In this document: positions 11,372-18,354 of the stretch, in pieces | Numbering within the stretch: position 1 is the stretch's first letter | Layout: every line of letters begins with the position of its first letter | Assembly (NCBI GenBank): GCA_022826705.1 | Contig: JAJDUJ010000015.1 | Location: 75,167-139,166, forward strand | Length of the DNA stretch: 64,000 nucleotides | Direction: 5' to 3' | From: Acidimicrobiia bacterium | Lineage (GTDB): Bacteria > Actinomycetota > Acidimicrobiia > Acidimicrobiales > Bin134 | Program-made: the position numbers and the translations under genes | Notes under the pieces: generated by a model | What the model was told of the DNA's origin: nothing | Database searches by the model: none | What the model saw: the letters and a program-made list of their open reading frames with translations, nothing else

Positions 11372-12243
11372 GCGATCGGCTGGTGGTCAACAAGACCTAC
11401 AAGCAGTTCATCGGCGGGGCGTTCGAGCGCTCCGAGTCGGGTCGGTCGTATCCGGTTGCCGGGGTCGGAGGAGAGCTCTTGGCCAACGCGGTCCAGGGTT
11501 CGCGCAAAGACGTTCGGGACGCAGTGGCGGCGGCCCGGTCGGCTCAAGGTGGCTGGGCCGGGCGCACGGCCTACAACCGGGGCCAGATCTTGTATCGGGT
11601 GGCCGAGGTTATGGAGTCCCGGCGAGACGAATTCAGCGCCGAGGTGGCTCGAGCGGGCGATGGGTGCTCCGACGAGGCCGCAGCCCAGGAGACAACCGCA
11701 GCCATCGACCGCTGGGTGTGGTATGCGGGCTGGGCCGACAAGTTCGCCACCGTGCTGGGCGGGGCCAACCCGGTGGCCGGTCCTTACTTCAACCTCAGCG
11801 TGCCCGAGCCGGTTGGCGTGGTGGGGATTGTGGGCTTCGGCGAGCCGCCCCTGCTTCCGCTGGTGTCTCGGCTGGCCCCGGTAATCGTGTCGGGAAATAC
11901 TGCGGTGGTTCTGGCCTCCGAGCGCTGTCCGCTGGTGGCCATCACCTTGGCTGAGACCCTGGCACTGAGCGACGTCCCCTCCGGAGTGGTCAACATCATT
12001 ACCGGCCATCGAGACGAGCTCGTCCCGCCGTTGGCCGGCCATGTGGCGGTCGACTCGCTAGACCTCACCGGCTGCGAACCCGACATGGCCGCCGATGCGT
12101 CCCGTCAAGCAGCGGCCACCATTACCAGGGTGGTGAGCGCATCGGCCGCCGAGCGGCAATGGGCTGATGAGAGCGCCCAGAGCCCCTATCTCATCGACGC
12201 CTTCTGCGAAACCAAGACCGTCTGGCACCCCAAGGGCCGATGA
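11368..12243 (+). CDS. aldehyde dehydrogenase-family protein, short form lacking the catalytic ELGG/Cys motifs
   Basis: ATG at 11368 overlaps the previous stop (ATGA). The N-terminus YKQFIGGAFERSESGRSYPV... and the cofactor-domain region GNTAVVLASE are ALDH-like. The protein ends at 291 aa without ELGGK or a GQxC catalytic loop. Confidence 0.75.
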   Translation: MSDRLVVNKTYKQFIGGAFERSESGRSYPVAGVGGELLANAVQGSRKDVRDAVAAARSAQGGWAGRTAYNRGQILYRVAEVMESRRDEFSAEVARAGDGCSDEAAAQETTAAIDRWVWYAGWADKFATVLGGANPVAGPYFNLSVPEPVGVVGIVGFGEPPLLPLVSRLAPVIVSGNTAVVLASERCPLVAITLAETLALSDVPSGVVNIITGHRDELVPPLAGHVAVDSLDLTGCEPDMAADASRQAAATITRVVSASAAERQWADESAQSPYLIDAFCETKTVWHPKGR

Positions 12244-12911
12244 GCGCGGGACCGTTTGTCTTCGGCGTTGATCTCGACGGGGTGTGCGCTGAGCACACCG
12301 TGGCCTTCCGCAAGATCGTGGCTCAGGAAAAGGGTGTGCCCGAGGAGTCGTTGACCTTGGAGTGCAGCTGGGGCTTCGAGGAATGGGGCTTCGGGGAAGG
12401 CGATTTCGAGGACTACCACCGCCGGGCGGTGGCGGAGCACCGGATGCTGGCCGACATGCCGGCTATGCCCGGCGCTTCCAAGGCGCTGTGGCGGTTGTCG
12501 GAGGCCGGGGTGTGGATCCGGATCATCACCCACCGGCTCTACACCAACTGGGACCACGCCATCGCCGCGGGCGACACAGCGGAGTGGCTCGACAAGGCCA
12601 AGATTCCCTACCGCGACCTCTGCTTCGTAGGCGGGAAGTCAGCGGTGGACGCCCACGTCTACATCGAAGACGCCCCCCACAATGTCGAGGCCCTCAGGTC
12701 GGAGGGCCGAACTGTGATCGTGTTCGACCAGCCCTACAACCGAGACCTAGACCCGCCCCGGGCCACCTCTTGGGAAGAAGTAGAGGCCATGGTGTACGAC
12801 GAGCTGGCCGCCCATCAAGGCGCCGTCCAACACCAACTCCCCACCTTCGACCCCAGCACCGACCGCCTTTTACAAAAGGATGAACCTTCTGGACACGAGC
12901 AGGATTCTTAG
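12240..12911 (+). CDS. 5'(3')-deoxyribonucleotidase-like HAD phosphatase (NT5C family)
   Basis: ATGA overlap with the upstream gene. HAD motif I FGVDLDGVCAEH and an NT5C-like length (223 aa). The last ~14 codons (LLQKDEPSGHEQDS) are encoded by the AT-rich island DNA. Confidence 0.75.
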   Translation: MSAGPFVFGVDLDGVCAEHTVAFRKIVAQEKGVPEESLTLECSWGFEEWGFGEGDFEDYHRRAVAEHRMLADMPAMPGASKALWRLSEAGVWIRIITHRLYTNWDHAIAAGDTAEWLDKAKIPYRDLCFVGGKSAVDAHVYIEDAPHNVEALRSEGRTVIVFDQPYNRDLDPPRATSWEEVEAMVYDELAAHQGAVQHQLPTFDPSTDRLLQKDEPSGHEQDS

Positions 12912-12995
12912 AGCCTTGTGTAGGTCACAGTAAGTTCCACAGAAAATGAGGAGACCAGGTTGGTCTGCAGGGAAACCGAGAATAGGAGACCATAA

Positions 12996-14657
12996 GTGAA
13001 AATATCTCAAGATGCTATGGAAGATGCGTTGGTCGACTTCCATGAGTTGCAATATAGCCGAGAACTGGCATCGTTGTATGAGAGCTATCTGGTGGCGAAG
13101 TGGTTTGAAGCAAATGAACTTGAGCAACCGCAAATATCTGACGCCAATGATGCCGTAGATGCAATCTTTGCTCTTTCACCAGCGCACACGTTGGGCAGAC
13201 TTTATCCATTCAGATACGACTGGACGACAACTGAGAGTTCAGGAAGAAAAACAGTATGGAACAATACAACACGAGGGGGGAGCACACTCGCTGCTTCGAT
13301 TTTCAATGAAGGAGGAGAGGGGAACGAGAAGGACATCAGACATGGGTTGCAGAGCACAGCAGCACGGCAAGTAAAGGAAGCAATCACTAGTAAGAACAAG
13401 AGATTCCCCAGATGGACCTCTCTGGCTTGCTTGATATTGCGTGAATACGAATTCAATGACGAAGACGAGTGGAATGATGTACGCGCTTTATTGAAACAAC
13501 GGCTTAACCTTACTGACGGCGATTTAGAGTTAATAACGAATCAACCCATTGACCATCTCCCCCTATTGGCGGACTCTGAATGGCGTATTGACCTCCTGCC
13601 TGACAAATTGGCCCCCAGAGAGTCAGCAGGTCGAAAACAACTTGGAATAACGGAGTATGAACGAAGCGCAGATGAGATAGTAGAAGTGGTACTCGATAGA
13701 CGTGTAGAGGAAATGTTAAAACAAGCGGTCAGTAAGTATCCCTTTATCATGCTGGTTGGTCCTCCAGGAACTGGAAAAGGAACCTTGATTAAGTGGTTGA
13801 TGGAGGATATTTCAATTGATCCGACAAAATATGGGTTCAAAGAGGCCTTTAAGCCGCCTTCCTTGTGGCGAACTCCAGACGAGAGTTGGTCGGCTTTTGA
13901 ACTCATTGGAGGCTATGTACCCAATTCAGAAGGAAATCTAGAATGGTCTCCTGGCCTATTGTTGAACGCACTTGTTGATGAGAAGTGGCTGATTCTAGAC
14001 GAGGCCAACCGGGCGGATATGGACAGAATCATGGGCCCGCTTCTGACTTGGCTCTCTGAGCAAGATGTGGAGATAGGGAGAACAAGACCGCATGACGGAG
14101 AGTCAATAGTGTTGGGATGGACCAAAGCTCCAGAAAACAGAGTTCATTCTACAACTGACGGAATTCCAGTAAAGTACTTGGCAGGGTCTCACTGGAGAAT
14201 GTTTGGTACGTATAATCCTCAAGACGCCCTGAGAGTGTTTCGTTTTGGACAGGCCCTGTCTCGGAGGTTCGTAATAGTGCCGATACCAGCCATATCATCA
14301 GGCCAGTTTGAAGAACTATTGAATTCAAATTACCGTAGCCTAGGTGATGACTATTCGAACATGATAACAGGACTTTATTCGGCACATCTCCAAGACAAGG
14401 ATACGACATTAGGTCCCGCAGTATTTCTACGTATGGCACGTTATCTTCACCCTCTTGGCAGTGACATGGATATGGTTGACGACAAGAGCATGAAGGATAA
14501 GGTTGCTGAGGCATATGTCATGAATGTTGGAAAATACTTAGCTTCTTACGACGACGACATGCTGAACTCGCTTATGTATCGAGTTCTTGAGGAGTGGCCT
14601 GTGTTTGGTGTAATTCAATGGGACTGGATCATGGCACAACGCAATACAATCTTATAG
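12996..14657 (+). CDS. McrB-like AAA+ (AAA_5) NTPase with unassigned ~240-aa N-terminal domain
   Basis: GTG at 12996 lies 6 nt after AGGAGA; an alternative ATG is at 13017. P-loop VGPPGTGKGTL is verified in the DNA (ggt cct cca gga act gga aaa gga acc at 13758-13784). Walker B with the N-R signature: WLILDEANRADMDRIMGPLL. TYNPQD corresponds to the McrB NTAD (NxxD) motif, and ALSRRF is also McrB-like. Confidence 0.8.
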   Translation: MKISQDAMEDALVDFHELQYSRELASLYESYLVAKWFEANELEQPQISDANDAVDAIFALSPAHTLGRLYPFRYDWTTTESSGRKTVWNNTTRGGSTLAASIFNEGGEGNEKDIRHGLQSTAARQVKEAITSKNKRFPRWTSLACLILREYEFNDEDEWNDVRALLKQRLNLTDGDLELITNQPIDHLPLLADSEWRIDLLPDKLAPRESAGRKQLGITEYERSADEIVEVVLDRRVEEMLKQAVSKYPFIMLVGPPGTGKGTLIKWLMEDISIDPTKYGFKEAFKPPSLWRTPDESWSAFELIGGYVPNSEGNLEWSPGLLLNALVDEKWLILDEANRADMDRIMGPLLTWLSEQDVEIGRTRPHDGESIVLGWTKAPENRVHSTTDGIPVKYLAGSHWRMFGTYNPQDALRVFRFGQALSRRFVIVPIPAISSGQFEELLNSNYRSLGDDYSNMITGLYSAHLQDKDTTLGPAVFLRMARYLHPLGSDMDMVDDKSMKDKVAEAYVMNVGKYLASYDDDMLNSLMYRVLEEWPVFGVIQWDWIMAQRNTIL

Positions 14658-14663
14658 CCAAAT

Positions 14664-15878
14664 ATGGAGCAGAAAAGCATAGAAGTTCCGAGGGCAGGGT
14701 TAGCTGAACTGACGCGGAGCTGGTCTGGTACTGGCCATCTGATAGATTTACTTTCTCACGTACAAGATGATAGCTACTCAATACAGTGGAAACGTCAAGA
14801 TATAGTCCGCAGATCCAATCGAGTGCTCCTTGAAAAGATGGAGCCGTTTATTCTCAATTGGCCATCTACATTGCGCCAATGGGAGGCATTTCTTCCGGCT
14901 ACCGCGCTTTCGGAAAGCCAGATATCGGATAGACCGCGTGGAACAGTCAATTGGCTTCATACATATCGTAAATTCGGATGGCCCCCTAGCCATTATATGA
15001 CAAAGACAAGGAATAGGGATTTTGGTGGAGTAGCAATAACTGTTATGGGTTGGCTGTCCAAGCAACTGAAGGACATTGAAAGAGATGTACGCGAATTGAG
15101 TTCCGTTCTTGTAGACAGGGTTGCCGATCAAACTCGAGTGTTATCTCAAGTTGTAGAAGAGCACTCTTTGCATTCAGAATTTGCGGTTCCCGACAACTTT
15201 GAAATACGTGCTCTGACTTCTGCCGGTATGCCTTGGAGTAGTATCTCTAGAGCGGTTGAATTGATTGTGCGGTCTACACGGGATCCAGAATTTCTGGCCT
15301 ATGAACTTCTTGAGCCAGATCCAAAGATGGAGCACGATCTCTTTCATCTGGCAGTGCTTGGCTATTTGATAGCTTCATTGCGCGATCATAATTTTGAGAT
15401 AGTTTGGAAGTCCATTCTGAAGGGGTCGCAACGGTATCCTCATATTCAAGCGATTCAAATGGACGGAACAGAATGGGACGTGTGGTTTGAGGCAAGATCG
15501 GTTCGAGATCATTATGAAGCGTCTCCTTCCGCCTATCAGTCTGCTGTTAAGGGTATCGATTATCAAGAGAAGTCCCTGAGCTACGACATTCTGCTCATAT
15601 CACCAGAACGGCGCGCCTTGATTTTAGAGTGCAAGTGGAGAGTCGATCCGCAAAGCGTTGGTCGAGAGGGGTTTCATCAAGCTTCCAGTTATGCATTAGA
15701 CGTCAAAAATGATTTGGCTGAAGAAGTCTGGGCATTTGTAGTTGGACCGGAGGAGCTAGTTTCTTCAGTTAGCGTAGCGTCGGAGAATTATCTTGCTCTT
15801 TCTGTCATGCTTGGTTCGACTCCGGCCACCAGAATATCAGACGTCGTTACTCTCTTCCTCTCTGAAGAGATAAGTTAA
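14664..15878 (+). CDS. McrC-like partner protein with C-terminal PD-(D/E)xK nuclease motif
   Basis: ATG lies 6 nt after the stop of the AAA+ gene, with no separate RBS. The C-terminal YDILLISPERRALILECKW gives D-x13-E-x-K, followed by QASSYA. The N-terminal ~300 aa are unassigned. The McrC analogy comes from gene order and the motif, not from a search. Confidence 0.65.
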   Translation: MEQKSIEVPRAGLAELTRSWSGTGHLIDLLSHVQDDSYSIQWKRQDIVRRSNRVLLEKMEPFILNWPSTLRQWEAFLPATALSESQISDRPRGTVNWLHTYRKFGWPPSHYMTKTRNRDFGGVAITVMGWLSKQLKDIERDVRELSSVLVDRVADQTRVLSQVVEEHSLHSEFAVPDNFEIRALTSAGMPWSSISRAVELIVRSTRDPEFLAYELLEPDPKMEHDLFHLAVLGYLIASLRDHNFEIVWKSILKGSQRYPHIQAIQMDGTEWDVWFEARSVRDHYEASPSAYQSAVKGIDYQEKSLSYDILLISPERRALILECKWRVDPQSVGREGFHQASSYALDVKNDLAEEVWAFVVGPEELVSSVSVASENYLALSVMLGSTPATRISDVVTLFLSEEIS

Positions 15879-17170
15879 GATTGGACCGAATGGTCTGGGC
15901 TCTCAATTTGTTCTAGGCGTTCTTTTGCAATCGAAAGATACGTCTGAGAAATATCAAAACCCAAGAATCTGCAGCCATGATGTAGCGCGGCCACTCCAGA
16001 GTTACCGGACCCTACGAAGGGGTCGAGTACAAGGTCGCCTGGCTCAGTGGAAAGGGCTATGCATCGTCCGGGCAGGGCGGTAGGAAATTGGGCACCATGG
16101 CCGTTTCCTCCTGTGGAGGTATTTAGGACCCAGACATCAGATAGTTTTTCGGTTTCGCAGAACTCGTCTCGACCGCCGAATTGGGGATCAGCAGTGAGGT
16201 AGGCATTCTTAATGAACTTGGGCGTTCGCGTTTTTGAAATGTGGAGTACATATTCCAAATTTCGACTTACACGCGAGTTGTGAGGTTCAGGTAGCGTGCT
16301 TCGTTTCGCCCATGTGATGACGGACTTGACATACAATCCGACTCTACTGGCTCGCTCTGCGATGAGAGCAGGAATAAGGCACTGCTCTCCATCCTTGAGA
16401 TAGGAATGGCCTGCCGAATAACGGCGCATACTGTGGTCGTGCCACTTTCTCGAATCCTTGCCTTCCATTGCTCTCAGTGCTTCAACGGCTGAGTTTCGGA
16501 TTTGAGTGCGTGTATTGAAACTGTCCATTATGTTCCACCAGATAGATCCGTCATCTGTAAGAACTCTGGCGAGTGAGTCGATTACTTCTGTGGTATGGCG
16601 TACGAACCCTTCAGGCGTTTGTTCTAGGCCATACGGGCATATTTCCCCGTCGGCCCACGGTGTGGCTTGAGCGTCCTCGTAGGTGCGAGTACCCCAATAT
16701 GGGGTTGACGTTACGATACATTGGACAGTTGATTCAGGGATGGTGTGAATCAGATCAAGTGCATTTCCAAGTCGTAGATCGTATGTCGATGGATTCGGGG
16801 TGTAATTGGTCTCCATCGTATTCTGCTGTAGTGAACTGAGATAGGCAATGACCTGCGAACGAGGAGTGATCGTTTCCTGGAAGGCATCGAGATCCAAGAG
16901 CTGTAGGACGTTCTGTGCGTTGAGTCTGTCCTTCTGGCTTGTGGCCTTCCGCACGAACAGCGGGGACATTCCAACGGCCTTGGCCACATGGTCGAGGCGA
17001 TAGGAATGATCAAGTGTCTTAATGTGATCACGATCGAGAGAGGTGAGGGGAGTGTGTGGCTTTATGTCCGAGGGGTGCCACGTCATAGAGCTGTTTGGCA
17101 TGGCCTGTATCTCCTGCTCGGCTTCACGGATGTAATTTGTCGAGGACATGATGGCATGACCTTGTGACAC
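15875..17170 (-). CDS. beta-class N4-cytosine/N6-adenine DNA methyltransferase (N6_N4_Mtase family) with ~130-aa N-terminal extension
   Basis: Motif IV variant IVTSTPYWG (aa 152-160) lies upstream of HGAQFPTALPGRCI and AdoMet motif I LVLDPFVGSGNSGVAA (aa 381-396). The IV-then-I order indicates the beta class. Start is the GTG at 17170; alternatives are the ATG at 17149 and Met24. The N-terminal segment LDHVAKAVGMSPLFVRKA is HTH-like. Confidence 0.88.
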   Translation of the reverse strand: MSQGHAIMSSTNYIREAEQEIQAMPNSSMTWHPSDIKPHTPLTSLDRDHIKTLDHSYRLDHVAKAVGMSPLFVRKATSQKDRLNAQNVLQLLDLDAFQETITPRSQVIAYLSSLQQNTMETNYTPNPSTYDLRLGNALDLIHTIPESTVQCIVTSTPYWGTRTYEDAQATPWADGEICPYGLEQTPEGFVRHTTEVIDSLARVLTDDGSIWWNIMDSFNTRTQIRNSAVEALRAMEGKDSRKWHDHSMRRYSAGHSYLKDGEQCLIPALIAERASRVGLYVKSVITWAKRSTLPEPHNSRVSRNLEYVLHISKTRTPKFIKNAYLTADPQFGGRDEFCETEKLSDVWVLNTSTGGNGHGAQFPTALPGRCIALSTEPGDLVLDPFVGSGNSGVAALHHGCRFLGFDISQTYLSIAKERLEQIESPDHSVQS

Positions 17171-17295
17171 ATTGGGCGATGGTGAGCTCCATTGCAGCTG
17201 ATGGCTGACGAGGGAAGAGCCCGAAGTGAAGTTGGTGGGGGTCGGACAGCTCCACCCAACGACAAACTGTCACCGTCTGCCCGCACAATGGACAT

Positions 17296-17637
17296 ATGCC
17301 GGATCCTGCGGAATTTGAACTTCCGCCTCGCCCCGGCCACCCCGTTGCCCGGGAGGAGTCGACGTCGTGGCCGGATCGCGTTGGCACGACCATGCTTGGC
17401 TCTGGCTATGAGGGGGTATTGGTAGAAGACGGATACGGCTTCCTGGCGATCTTTTGGCACGGCGATTCAGCCACGCAACTGTGGGCTGCCCGGTTGGTCG
17501 ACGTTGCGCGGGTGAAAGTCGGCGTGAGGGCTTTGGATTCCGAAGAGTGGCTGACGTTCAGCCCCGACGACTCTTTGCGGCTGCAAGAACTGTGGGGTAT
17601 CCCCGTCTACCTGCTGGAATGCCCGGAATTGTTGTGA
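17296..17637 (+). CDS. hypothetical protein (weakly supported)
   Basis: 113-aa ORF between the island and the HAD gene. Its third-position GC looks intermediate (many NNT/NNA codons) compared with neighbouring host genes. No motif recognised, and it may start at the internal Met (MLGSGYEG). Confidence 0.3.
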   Translation: MPDPAEFELPPRPGHPVAREESTSWPDRVGTTMLGSGYEGVLVEDGYGFLAIFWHGDSATQLWAARLVDVARVKVGVRALDSEEWLTFSPDDSLRLQELWGIPVYLLECPELL

Positions 17638-17655
17638 CCGAGGCTTAAGGATCCG

Positions 17656-18354
17656 CTACTGGCCGTCCAGCCAGGGGGGGAGTTGGCGGATGTCGGATAG
17701 TTCCACCCAGTTGTCGTGGGGGGAGATGGTGGCGTGCTCCAGGTCCCAAGTGAGGTGGTAGGGGATGTGGACACCGCGGCCGCCGAGGGCGACCACGGGC
17801 TCGATGTCGGAGCGCACCGAATTTCCCACCATCACGAATCGGTCGATGGCGATGTCGTGGCGCTGGAGCAGTCGGGAGTAGGTGGACTGGTCTTTCTCGG
17901 CCACGATCTCCACTGCGTCGAAGTGATCGGCCAGCCCGGAGGCGGCGATCTTGGTCTCCTGATTCCACAGGTCGCCCTTGGTGATGAGCACCAGGCGATA
18001 GTGGTGTTCCAACACCTCTATGGTCTCGGCTACTCCGTCGAGCAGCTCCACTGGGTGGGCGTGCATTTCCTTGGCCCAGCCCACAATGGTGTGGATCTCC
18101 TCCGCGGTGATCTGTCCTTCGGTGGCCTCGATCGCAGTCTCGATCATCGACAGCACGAACCCTTTGATCCCGTAGCCAAAGATGGCCACGTTGTGCCGCT
18201 CTAGTTCGATGAGTCGCTCGTGGAAGTCCACATCGGGCAGGTAGCGGGCCACCAGGTCGGCCATCCGCTGCTCGTAGTCGGCGAAGATCGACTCGTTGTG
18301 CCACAGGGTGTCATCGGCATCGAGGCCGACGGCGTGAATGGGGGCTGCGGTCAC
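17656..18354 (-). CDS. HAD-superfamily hydrolase/phosphatase
   Basis: Motif [13 protein letters not shown] near the N-terminus, with later LITKGD and MVGNSVRSD motifs. ATGA-type 4-nt overlap with add. Confidence 0.85.

What the first reader, a model, noticed from the sequence alone, without database searches (positions are those of the whole stretch)
12867..17190. Low-GC island with a three-gene McrB-like / PD-(D/E)xK / amino-methyltransferase cassette: candidate undescribed restriction-defence module
Seen in the sequence:
- GC drops from 63% (12601-12660) to 40% (13201-13260) and 47% (15301-15360), then returns to 62% (17701-17760), by hand counts.
- The island holds exactly three genes with AT-rich codons.
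- A is an AAA+ protein with McrB-family hallmarks: Walker B plus N-R (LILDEANRAD), TYNPQD in place of McrB NTAD, and ALSRRF.
- B starts 6 nt after A and ends in D-x13-E-C-K (YDILLISPERRALILECKW).
- C is a convergent beta-class N6_N4 MTase, with motif IV STPY before motif I DPFVGSGNSG.

Established knowledge: canonical McrBC is a modification-dependent type IV enzyme without a cognate MTase. The McrBC-like enzymes I know that travel with MTases (LlaJI and, as far as I recall, BsuMI) use C5-cytosine MTases.

Inference: a McrBC-type motor/nuclease pair is coupled to an amino-MTase here. The cassette has no integrase or transposase and sits in the middle of a nucleoside-salvage locus of a high-GC actinobacterium. 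I do not recognise this combination as a described system.
Basis: partly seen in the sequence, partly recalled or inferred. Interest (0 to 1): 0.85.

Follow-up and report, generated by a model that had tools for sequence, protein, structure and literature searches.

The report
Divergent McrBC-like restriction-modification cassette
A low-GC, three-gene island in a sponge-associated actinobacterium most likely encodes a restriction-modification system built like LlaJI (a motor ATPase, a McrC-like nuclease and a protective DNA methyltransferase): the design is known, but the protein families are unannotated, and the motor and nuclease genes are swapped as a unit between close relatives.

Summary
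GC is 0.48 in the island against 0.66-0.68 in the flanks, and GC3 is 0.42-0.52 against 0.82-0.89. The three ORFs, their spacing and every quoted motif are present.

- **A** has a 215-residue N-terminal domain with no detectable relative, followed by an AAA_5 module. The module aligns end to end with E. coli McrB (hhalign 95%, E 2.6e-8). By fold it is equally close to MoxR-type NorQ/CbbQ.
- **B** matches no sequence profile. Its confident AF2 model finds McrC chains first (E 1e-9), and D-x13-ExK plus QxxxY are conserved across the family.
- **C** is a beta-class N6_N4 MTase with invariant motif IV STPY, probably an m4C enzyme.

The triad stays together in 19 of 19 loci with intact A and B and enough flanking sequence, in two gene orders, all in Actinomycetota. 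It is best read as a modification-blocked, McrBC-like R-M system of the LlaJI type. The "undescribed combination" claim is overstated: McrBC relatives linked to MTases are known and considered ancestral. What is new is the sequence families (B has about 296 clusters, none annotated), a deviant Walker A (GKG) and the single amino-MTase.

An unexpected extra: the NT5C|HAD junction is a defence hotspot in Ca. Poriferisocius. There the A-B cassette is only 47-57% identical between congeners whose flanks are 89-97% identical and whose MTase is 79-95% identical.

The parts
12869..17652 (.). Variable (accessory) segment of the NT5C|HAD hotspot: the triad plus one small GC-rich ORF
   Evidence: blastn homology to congeners L028, L029 and L030 ends at 12868/12869 and resumes at 17653/17655. 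GC of the segment is 0.49.
12985..12990 (+). Ribosome-binding site (AGGAGA) for A, 5 nt upstream of the GTG start
   Evidence: Read directly from the sequence.
12996..14657 (+). Gene A: motor subunit, 553 aa (N-terminal domain, linker, AAA_5 module, helical lid)
   Evidence: ORF. Pfam AAA_5 E 9.8e-10. hhalign against EcMcrB 95%, E 2.6e-8. AF2 pLDDT 86.4. More than 450 homologs.
12996..13640 (+). A residues 1-215: conserved N-terminal domain of unknown fold family, inferred to be the DNA-recognition domain
   Evidence: pLDDT about 85-97, followed by a disordered linker at 217-226. Invariant GRL-PF, SGRKTVWN and DIR-GL blocks. No PDB or Pfam relative.
13683..14285 (+). A residues 230-430: AAA+ core with Walker A GPPGTGKG (13758-13781), Walker B DEANRAD, NPQD and ALSRRF
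   Evidence: Foldseek matches to NorQ/CbbQ, dynein and McrB.
14664..15878 (+). Gene B: McrC-like nuclease subunit, 404 aa
   Evidence: AF2 pLDDT 87.7, pTM 0.82. Foldseek top hits are EcMcrC 6hz4_M 1.1e-9, 6ut6_G, TgMcrC 6ut7_G and BsuMI YdjA-YdiS 9a5m. No Pfam, NCBIfam, PADLOC or PDB sequence hit.
15585..15695 (+). B catalytic core: D308, E322-x-K324, Q339-x3-Y343
   Evidence: Invariant in 27 aligned homologs. ExK plus QxxxY in 148 of 157 full-length homologs. Aligns with the EcMcrC D-A-K strand.
15875..17101 (-). Gene C: beta-class N6_N4 DNA methyltransferase (408 aa from the ATG; the ORF extends to a GTG at 17170)
   Evidence: Pfam N6_N4_Mtase 2.2e-37. PADLOC MTase_II 1.5e-49. Gene call of 408 aa.
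16697..16708 (-). C motif IV, S-T-P-Y (catalytic loop)
   Evidence: TSTPYWG is invariant in 17 loci. Position.
15995..16024 (-). C motif I, DPFVGSGNSG (AdoMet binding), C-terminal to motif IV, which is the beta-class order
   Evidence: The Pfam alignment covers residues 149-417.
17296..17637 (+). 113-codon ORF with host-like GC inside the variable segment, function unknown; probably not part of the system
   Evidence: 91-100% identical in L002, L003 and L044; absent from L001, L028, L029 and L030. GC about 0.62.

Best explanation
The island encodes a modification-blocked, NTP-dependent restriction-modification system with the architecture of LlaJI.

C methylates host DNA at a defined site, probably producing N4-methylcytosine. 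A uses its N-terminal domain to bind unmethylated sites and assembles through its AAA+ module into a ring. B, a McrC-like protein, docks its N-terminal helical-bundle/stalk domain on that ring and carries the PD-(D/E)xK active site. NTP hydrolysis by A moves DNA until the complexes stall, and B then cleaves it.

Shown here: the domain architectures, the conserved catalytic motifs, the McrC-like fold of B, the McrB-like alignment of A, tight co-inheritance of the three genes, and the accessory nature of the island.

Inferred: DNA binding by A's N-terminal domain, the A-B complex, protection by methylation, the nucleotide used, and the methylated base.
For: (1) **Linkage.** A, B and C are adjacent in all 19 loci that have intact A and B and enough flank. 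The order is A>B><C in Acidimicrobiia and <C A>B> in Leifsonia, Gordonia, Micromonospora and one metagenome contig. At large scale the three trees are congruent.

(2) **B.** The AF2 model (pLDDT 87.7) finds McrC of E. coli and T. gammatolerans and the BsuMI R3 model as its top four hits (E 1e-9 to 4e-5, probability 0.99-1.0) over about 430 alignment columns. Other nucleases score E > 0.007. D308, E322, K324, Q339 and Y343 are invariant.

(3) **A.** hhalign against EcMcrB gives 95.2%, E 2.6e-8, over 222 columns. It aligns the P-loop, SWSAFELIGGYVPN with SYSYEDFIQGYRPN, DEANRAD with DEINRAN, NPQD with NTAD, and ALSRRF with ALRRRF. In the profile search against PDB sequences, McrB ranks directly after midasin and no MoxR, CbbQ or NorQ appears in the top 60. 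The layout is an N-terminal variable domain, a linker and the AAA+ module, as in McrB and LlaJI.R1 (PMC1459862).

(4) **Selection.** dN/dS is 0.19 for A, 0.16 for B and 0.13 for C between the window and L044.

(5) **Decay asymmetry.** R genes are broken while C is intact in L025 and L035. No locus has clearly intact A and B without C.

(6) **Context.** The same junction holds other restriction or addiction cargo in congeners (ResIII + Mrr_cat_2 + AAA_14 in L028; a VapC/HTH pair in L044) and is nearly empty in L029. In Gordonia the triad lies beside a Wadjet-like cluster.

(7) **Precedent.** LlaJI, LlaI and BsuMI are McrBC relatives that restrict unmethylated DNA and need MTases.
Against: - No experiment exists for any member of the family.
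- A's AAA+ fold is not closer to McrB than to MoxR-type NorQ/CbbQ, and no McrB-specific profile in PADLOC or NCBIfam detects it.
- B has no significant sequence similarity to McrC (hhalign 0.5%, E 0.12; no Pfam hit in 27 members).
- Walker A lacks the canonical Ser/Thr (GKG in 112 of 120 homologs), so the NTPase chemistry may be unusual or weak.
- Within Ca. Poriferisocius the A-B cassette has recombined independently of C. That fits a sequence-specific R-M only if the exchanged alleles share one specificity.
- In L026 the MTase is reduced to a fragment while the A and B ORFs keep their motifs, although both lack normal start codons.
- B was not found on any catalogued plasmid or phage, so its mobility route is unknown.
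Confidence: 0.68

Rival explanations
1. A-B is a modification-dependent (type IV) McrBC-like enzyme that attacks foreign modified DNA. C is a separately acting MTase whose mark A-B does not target, for example an epigenetic or anti-restriction methylase, kept nearby for another reason.
For: Canonical McrBC is modification-dependent, and McrB N-terminal domains often read modified bases. The A-B cassette recombines independently of C within the genus, which is easier if A-B specificity does not have to match C. Type IV systems also sit in variable 'immigration control' hotspots.
Against: Adjacency to C is kept in 19 of 19 loci despite gene-order rearrangement, and the A, B and C trees are congruent at large scale. 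The decay pattern (R broken with M intact, never clearly the reverse) is what a toxic R restrained by M would give. All characterised McrBC relatives that carry a linked MTase are modification-blocked.
Confidence: 0.15
2. A is a MoxR/NorQ-like remodelling ATPase working with B in a non-defence DNA transaction, such as repair, or regulation coupled to methylation. The module is not a restriction system.
For: Foldseek's best hits for A are NorQ and CbbQ (7e-10 to 4e-9). JGI names several homologs 'MoxR-like ATPase'. The Walker A is deviant. The island lies within a nucleoside-salvage cluster.
Against: No VWA partner gene is present, whereas MoxR-class ATPases are typically paired with one (my own knowledge; neighbours). 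The Pfam bpMoxR hit is only E 0.069, below the cutoff. The partner is instead a McrC-like protein with an intact nuclease triad. The module is accessory, with present, absent and alternative-cargo states at the same site, and its GC3 is foreign. The salvage context is specific to one genus; other hosts place the triad elsewhere.
Confidence: 0.07
3. The cassette is mainly a selfish addiction module (post-segregational killing by a stable R and an unstable M) maintained by its own toxicity, with little benefit against phage.
For: It occupies a hotspot that also collects a VapC toxin-antitoxin pair. The R genes decay frequently. It has a foreign GC and no mobility genes.
Against: This is not exclusive of the main explanation: it has the same molecular mechanism and differs only in the selective rationale. 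Purifying selection on A and B and old alleles maintained within one genus fit phage-driven selection at least as well.
Confidence: 0.1

Closest known systems
LlaJI R-M system (Lactococcus lactis pNP40; homologs in Helicobacter pylori)
   Same: Two restriction genes. R1 is a unique N-terminal DNA-binding domain joined to a McrB-like NTPase; R2 is a McrC-like PD-(D/E)xK nuclease. The system is linked to MTase genes and restricts unmethylated DNA. A, B and C have the same layout.
   Different: LlaJI has two MTases for an asymmetric site; from my own recollection they are m5C enzymes. Here there is one beta-class amino-MTase, probably an m4C enzyme. LlaJI.R1's N-terminal domain is a B3-like fold, while A's is an unrelated domain of unknown family. 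A and B are not detected by McrB, McrC or RE_LlaJI-type profiles. Walker A is GKG. The hosts are Actinomycetota.
E. coli / T. gammatolerans McrBC (type IV)
   Same: An AAA_5-branch NTPase with Walker B DExNR, NxxD and ALxRRF, preceded by an N-terminal DNA-reading domain. The partner has a helical-bundle/stalk N-terminal domain and a C-terminal PD-(D/E)xK domain and is encoded immediately downstream.
   Different: McrBC has no cognate MTase and cuts modified DNA. Sequence similarity is low for A (hhalign E 2.6e-8 against a single sequence) and insignificant for B. A is structurally as close to MoxR-type ATPases as to McrB.
LlaI and BsuMI (non-canonical three-gene McrBC systems)
   Same: McrB-like and McrC-like restriction components act with accompanying MTases and target DNA site-specifically. 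Their R2 motors use ATP and GTP alike. The BsuMI R3-R2 model 9a5m is B's fourth-best structural hit.
   Different: In those systems the DNA-binding module is a separate R1 protein, giving three R genes. Here it is fused to the motor, giving two.
MoxR-family AAA+ ATPases (NorQ, CbbQ)
   Same: They are the best Foldseek matches for A's AAA+ core (TM normalised to the target 0.62-0.72) and belong to the same Pfam AAA_5 branch.
   Different: Those enzymes lack A's 215-residue N-terminal domain. From my own knowledge they work with VWA-domain partners on protein substrates. Here there is no VWA gene and the partner is a nuclease.

Membership tests
McrB-like AAA+ NTPase | AAA+ fold of the AAA_5 / H2-insert branch | tested here: met
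   Pfam AAA_5 scores 39 bits against a cutoff of 22. Foldseek probability is 1.0 to McrB, NorQ and dynein.
McrB-like AAA+ NTPase | Canonical Walker A GxxxxGK[S/T] | tested here: not met
   The motif is GPPGTGK-G in 112 of 120 homologs, with S in 7 and T in 1. EcMcrB has GPPGVGKT at the aligned position.
McrB-like AAA+ NTPase | Walker B DExNR plus the NxxD signature motif, said to be present in all McrB-like GTPases (PMC11090510) | tested here: met
   DExNR[AG]D is present in 120 of 120 homologs and N-P-Q-D in 119 of 120. NPQD aligns with the McrB NTAD. Caveat from my own knowledge: MoxR and midasin carry a similar NPxE/Q at this position.
McrB-like AAA+ NTPase | Closer to McrB than to other AAA_5 clades (membership of the clade) | tested here: inconclusive
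   With the sequence profile, midasin scores 1e-22, then EcMcrB 6e-6 and TgMcrB 2e-5, and no MoxR appears in the top 60. By structure, NorQ/CbbQ score 7e-10 to 4e-9 against McrB at 1e-8. No McrB model in PADLOC or NCBIfam matches.
McrB-like AAA+ NTPase | GTP-dependent ring assembly and McrC-stimulated hydrolysis | not testable with these tools
   Needs biochemistry. Known non-canonical R2 motors use several NTPs.
McrC | Sequence membership in DUF2357 / McrBC / PDDEXK McrC profiles | tested here: not met
   None of the 27 family members has a Pfam hit at E <= 0.1. hhalign against EcMcrC gives 0.5%, E 0.12. The exhaustive profile search finds only 296 clusters, a closed family.
McrC | Fold: N-terminal helical bundle with a stalk, plus a C-terminal PD-(D/E)xK domain | tested here: met
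   The Foldseek top four are McrC or BsuMI R3 chains, E 1.1e-9 to 4.4e-5, over about 430 columns. The model shows a beta-hairpin at 79-88/111-120, helices at 123-241 and an alpha/beta core at 245-400.
McrC | Conserved catalytic D...(D/E)xK | tested here: met
   D308, E322 and K324 are invariant. ExK plus QxxxY occurs in 148 of 157 full-length homologs.
LlaJI-type modification-blocked McrBC-like R-M | Conserved linkage of a DBD-NTPase gene, a McrC-like gene and MTase gene(s) | tested here: met
   19 of 19 informative loci, in two gene orders.
LlaJI-type modification-blocked McrBC-like R-M | Restriction of unmethylated DNA, with protection by the cognate methylation | not testable with these tools
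   Only indirect support: R genes are broken while M is intact in L025 and L035, and the reverse is never clearly seen.
Beta-class N6_N4 DNA methyltransferase | Pfam N6_N4_Mtase above its cutoff, with motif IV N-terminal to motif I | tested here: met
   129.6 bits against a cutoff of 26.7. STPY is at residue 155 and DPFVGSGNSG at 383.
Beta-class N6_N4 DNA methyltransferase | Target base (m4C or m6A) | tested here: inconclusive
   Ser at the first position of motif IV (invariant TSTPYWG) and N4-cytosine MTases as the best PDB sequence hits (8s9m, 2e-16) favour m4C. CcrM and DpnA (m6A enzymes) also match.
MoxR-type chaperone system | MoxR-specific profile match and an adjacent VWA-domain partner | tested here: not met
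   bpMoxR scores E 0.069, 12.7 bits, against a cutoff of 27. No VWA gene appears in any neighbourhood examined.

The most novel reading that the evidence does not exclude
A and B may be an independently evolved (or very early-branching) nuclease motor rather than a derived McrBC. On this reading an AAA_5 ATPase lying between the MoxR/midasin and McrB clades, with a P-loop that has lost its Mg-coordinating Ser/Thr, was recruited to a McrC-like nuclease. Because whole A-B cassettes that are only about 50% identical are exchanged against a nearly constant MTase in one genus, the restriction module would recognise the absence of the methyl mark in a way that tolerates large sequence change. It would be a 'plug-compatible' R cassette kept diverse by pressure from phage anti-restriction proteins.
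Probability: 0.15. Interest if true: 0.7.

Novelty: new variant of a known kind. Interest (0 to 1): 0.45.

Why it matters
- **Gap in current annotation.** This is an Actinomycetota-wide restriction-modification family that annotation and defence-finder profiles miss. B has no Pfam, NCBIfam or PADLOC match, and A is labelled only 'AAA family ATPase' or 'MoxR-like'. Genomes carrying it, including cultured Gordonia, Micromonospora and Leifsonia, probably have an unrecognised barrier to transformation and phage infection.
- **Range of the McrBC design.** It extends modification-blocked McrBC-like enzymes to a single amino-MTase partner and to a motor with a non-canonical P-loop. That bears on how nucleotide use evolved in this AAA+ branch.
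- **A natural experiment.** The NT5C|HAD hotspot in the sponge symbiont Ca. Poriferisocius has deeply divergent A-B alleles beside a conserved MTase. It shows how restriction subunits diversify while methylation specificity is held constant.

Tried and rejected
- **Sequence-profile searches for B.** Pfam, NCBIfam, PADLOC, PDB phmmer, a PDB profile search, Pfam on 27 members, and hhalign against EcMcrC all gave nothing significant. Only structure comparison identified B.
- **A's N-terminal domain.** A profile search against PDB sequences and Pfam on 13 members gave nothing. Foldseek on full-length A (PDB and BFVD) returned only AAA+ hits, so the domain's fold family stays unknown.
- **Mobility signals.** There are no meaningful direct or inverted repeats at the borders and no tRNA nearby. 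B has no tblastn hit in 72,556 plasmids or 50,697 phages, and no IMG/VR hit.
- **Promoter and terminator scan.** Counts equal the shuffled expectation. Rfam finds only a distant tRNA.
- **Is the family in the published McrBC census?** The only held supplement lists CoCoNuT systems and was truncated, and it contains none of the accessions or taxa searched. I cannot tell.
- **Hypermutation or fast local evolution of A-B.** Rejected: dS for A and B (0.28) lies within the flank range (0.12-0.48) and dN/dS is 0.16-0.19.
- **Some apparent truncations of B.** L017, L020 and L023 are gene-calling artefacts; each has a single full-length ORF.
- **Low GC as a general property of the module.** Rejected: only the Ca. 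Poriferisocius clade has GC 0.46-0.48. Elsewhere the triad is at 0.59-0.66, close to its host.

Full report
**1.
- GC over 12867-17190 is 0.478. One-kb windows elsewhere in the 64-kb window average 0.662 (sd 0.022, minimum 0.613). The island is the only region below 0.6 (z about -8).
- Third-codon-position GC is 0.45 for A, 0.42 for B and 0.52 for C, against 0.82-0.89 in the neighbouring genes.
- ORFs: A at 12996-14657 (+, 553 aa; GTG start with AGGAGA five bases upstream). B at 14664-15878 (+, 404 aa), six bases after A. C is convergent on the minus strand, with its stop overlapping B's stop. C is probably 408 aa from the ATG at 17101, although the ORF runs to a GTG at 17170.

**2. What the three proteins are.**

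*Gene C.* C is an ordinary beta-class amino-methyltransferase. It scores 129.6 bits on Pfam N6_N4_Mtase (cutoff 26.7) and 1.5e-49 on a PADLOC type II MTase model. Motif IV (STPY, residue 155) precedes motif I (residue 383). TSTPYWG is invariant in 17 loci. The serine, together with N4-cytosine MTases as the best PDB sequence hits, favours m4C. CcrM and DpnA also match, so the target base is not settled.

*Gene A.*
- It passes the Pfam AAA_5 threshold but matches no McrB-specific model in PADLOC or NCBIfam.
- A 25-sequence family profile searched against PDB sequences finds midasin first (1e-22, inflated by six AAA domains per chain). E. coli McrB (6e-6) and T. gammatolerans McrB (2e-5) come next, then generic AAA+ proteins. 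No MoxR, CbbQ or NorQ appears in the top 60.
- hhalign of that profile against E. coli McrB gives 95.2% probability and E 2.6e-8 over 222 columns covering the whole AAA+ module. It aligns GPPGTGKG with GPPGVGKT, SWSAFELIGGYVPN with SYSYEDFIQGYRPN, DEANRAD with DEINRAN, YNPQDA with MNTADR, and ALSRRF with ALRRRF.
- The AF2 model (pLDDT 86.4) matches NorQ/CbbQ (7e-10 to 4e-9), dynein and McrB (1e-8) about equally. So A belongs to the MoxR/dynein/McrB branch, has the McrB motif set and architecture, and cannot be assigned to the McrB clade with these tools.
- Residues 1-215 form a confidently folded, well-conserved domain, separated from the motor by a disordered linker. It has no relative in PDB sequences or Pfam. 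A family-specific N-terminal domain ahead of the NTPase is the McrB and LlaJI.R1 layout, and in those proteins that domain binds DNA.
- The Walker A reads GPPGTGK-G in 112 of 120 homologs, so it lacks the usual Ser/Thr. Walker B, NPQD and ALxRRF are essentially invariant.

*Gene B.*
- It has no hit in Pfam, NCBIfam, PADLOC or PDB sequences, whether searched as a single sequence, as a profile, or member by member.
- An exhaustive HMM search of 1.84 billion cluster representatives finds only 296 clusters at E <= 1e-3. The family is small and closed, with no sequence bridge to McrC.
- Its AF2 model is confident (pLDDT 87.7, pTM 0.82). The four best Foldseek matches in the PDB are E. coli McrC (6hz4_M 1.1e-9; 6ut6_G 3e-6), T. 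gammatolerans McrC (1.3e-5) and the B. subtilis BsuMI YdjA-YdiS model (4.4e-5), each over about 430 columns. Can2, BsoBI and SgrAI follow at E > 0.007.
- D308, E322, K324, Q339 and Y343 are invariant. ExK plus QxxxY occurs in 148 of 157 full-length homologs.
- The only stretch hhalign pairs with E. coli McrC is the catalytic strand, ALILECKW against ILIVDAKY.
- B is therefore McrC-like by fold and by active site, but not by detectable sequence.

**3. The three genes are one unit.**
- A pattern scan of GTDB reference genomes with the B alignment returned 16 loci. Fourteen have the full triad, one is cut by a contig end, and one is a relic.
- Further loci from Gordonia and Micromonospora and from JGI metagenomes bring the count to 19 of 19: every locus with intact A and B and enough flank also has C adjacent.
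- Two gene orders occur. Acidimicrobiia have A>B><C. Leifsonia, Gordonia, Micromonospora and one metagenome contig have <C A>B>. Linkage has therefore survived rearrangement.
- The A, B and C trees agree at large scale.
- C is always the best conserved of the three, followed by A and then B, as is usual for R-M systems.
- Verified decay cases: A frameshifted with C intact (L025). A deleted except its last 80 residues, with B and C intact (L035). All three damaged (L026). A B relic only (L016). No locus has clearly intact A and B without C.
- All identified hosts are Actinomycetota.
- B is absent from the plasmid, phage and IMG/VR collections.

**4. The island is accessory cargo in a defence hotspot.**
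- The window organism is a Candidatus Poriferisocius, a member of the Acidimicrobiia; close relatives of its flanking NT5C protein are named so.
- Against three congeners, nucleotide homology stops at 12868/12869 and resumes at 17653/17655.
- At this NT5C|HAD junction the states are:
  - L029: a single repeat-protein gene, close to an empty site.
  - L028: a ResIII helicase, an Mrr_cat_2 nuclease and an AAA_14 ATPase.
  - L030: an inversion with no cargo.
  - L044: the triad plus a VapC/HTH pair.
- In Gordonia the triad lies beside a Wadjet-like JetB/JetC cluster.
- There is no integrase, transposase, tRNA or border repeat.

**5. An unexpected feature: the A-B cassette is allelic.**
- L001, L002 and L003 carry the triad at the same site as the window. 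Their flanking proteins are 89-97% identical to the window's. Yet A is 52-57% identical and B 47-54%, while C is 79-95%.
- Sliding nucleotide identity drops from about 0.9 to 0.45-0.65 exactly at 12900 and stays low to 15880. Against L003 it then jumps to 0.97-0.99 over C, which is higher than in the flanks.
- The A and B trees pair (window, L001) and (L002, L003). The C tree pairs (window, L003) and (L001, L002). The A-B cassette and the MTase have therefore recombined with a breakpoint at the B/C stop-codon junction.
- This is not hypermutation. Between the window and the closer allele in L044, dS for A and B (0.28) lies within the flank range (0.12-0.48) and dN/dS is 0.16-0.19. Old, divergent, functional A-B alleles are being exchanged within the genus.
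- The strong GC depression is specific to this clade (0.46-0.48). In other hosts the triad is at 0.59-0.66, near host values.
- I have no tested explanation for why old alleles remain AT-rich in a 66% GC genome.

**6. Mechanism.** The best-supported reading (confidence about 0.68) is a modification-blocked, NTP-driven restriction-modification system of the LlaJI type:
- C methylates the host.
- A reads unmethylated sites through its N-terminal domain and forms an AAA+ ring.
- B docks on the ring and cleaves.

The architectures, motifs, folds, linkage, purifying selection and accessory status are shown here. DNA binding by A's N-terminal domain, the A-B complex, protection by methylation, the nucleotide used and the methylated base are inferred. 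The rivals are a type IV enzyme with an unrelated MTase (about 0.15), a MoxR-like non-defence function (about 0.07), and a purely selfish addiction role, which has the same mechanism and differs only in selective rationale.

**7. Comparison with what is known.**
LlaJI was described in 2006 as a McrBC-like enzyme that acts with MTases on unmethylated DNA, and similarly organised systems were noted then (PMC1459862).
- LlaI and BsuMI are further examples (PMC3874153).
- The McrBC census finds MTase association in all three McrB branches and calls it probably ancestral (PMC11090510).
- This family differs in five respects: sequence families that standard profiles do not recognise; an N-terminal domain of unknown kind; a GKG P-loop; a single beta-class amino-MTase; and an actinobacterial range.
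- I could not determine whether the census already includes it.

**8. Verdict.** This is a real, coherent and probably functional system. It is a new variant of a known kind rather than a new kind. Interest is moderate (0.45). Its value lies mainly in the annotation gap it exposes, the unusual P-loop, and the allelic A-B cassette in a symbiont defence hotspot.

Noticed in passing
window 12869-12911 (3' end of the NT5C ORF 12240-12911): The window's NT5C is 223 aa, against 213-215 aa in congeners. Nucleotide homology to them ends at 12868/12869, so its last ~14 codons come from island DNA: the insertion supplied a new C-terminus and stop codon.
   Followed up: partly
window 12900-15880 compared with L001, L002, L003; C at 15900-17000: The A-B cassette is only 47-57% identical (amino acids) between congeners whose flanks are 89-97% identical. 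C is 79-95% identical, and 0.97-0.99 at nucleotide level against L003, higher than the flanks. The A/B and C trees are incongruent within the genus, which indicates recombination at the B/C junction.
   Followed up: yes
L044 6776-7818 (ENA ERZ23495297 scaffold_651): A VapC-like PIN toxin (PIN_3, VapC50_C) and an HTH_17 gene lie between NT5C and A in a strain whose triad is 89-98% identical to the window's.
   Followed up: no
L028 9769-17831: The same NT5C junction holds a different cargo in a congener: a 1312-aa ResIII/DEAD helicase, an Mrr_cat_2 nuclease, an AAA_14/DUF4143 ATPase, an HTH_38 gene and three unannotated genes. The HAD gene is missing there.
   Followed up: partly
L029 9636-10421 (minus strand): The nearly empty site carries a 261-aa ORF made almost entirely of roughly 9-residue repeats (HRLESQEQI / HQQETQKQI) after an N-terminal hydrophobic helix. 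Its GC is 0.54 against 0.65 in the flanks.
   Followed up: no
L030 9749-17294: In this congener the whole block from the ABC transporter to HAD is inverted relative to NT5C, with the breakpoint at the same junction.
   Followed up: no
window 13758-13781 (A residues 255-262): The Walker A is GPPGTGK-G. The Ser/Thr that normally coordinates Mg2+ is Gly in 112 of 120 family members, which recalls the adenylate-kinase type P-loop (weak NCBIfam adk hits).
   Followed up: partly
L017-L019 11626-17283 (Gordonia): Next to the triad are a ParA-like ATPase, a JetC/SMC-like 1114-aa protein and JetB/MksE (a Wadjet-like cluster). Upstream is an RHS/T7SS-signal toxin gene.
   Followed up: no
window 17296-17637: A 113-codon ORF with host-like GC lies inside the variable segment. 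It is 91-100% identical in L002, L003 and L044 and absent from L001, L028, L029 and L030. It has no family match, and it is unclear whether it belongs to the cargo or the host.
   Followed up: partly
L024 10434-11738 (= L001): Ca. Poriferisocius chromosome NZ_OZ241965 has two extra unannotated genes (189 and 228 aa, GC about 0.60) between C and HAD, in place of the 113-codon ORF.
   Followed up: no
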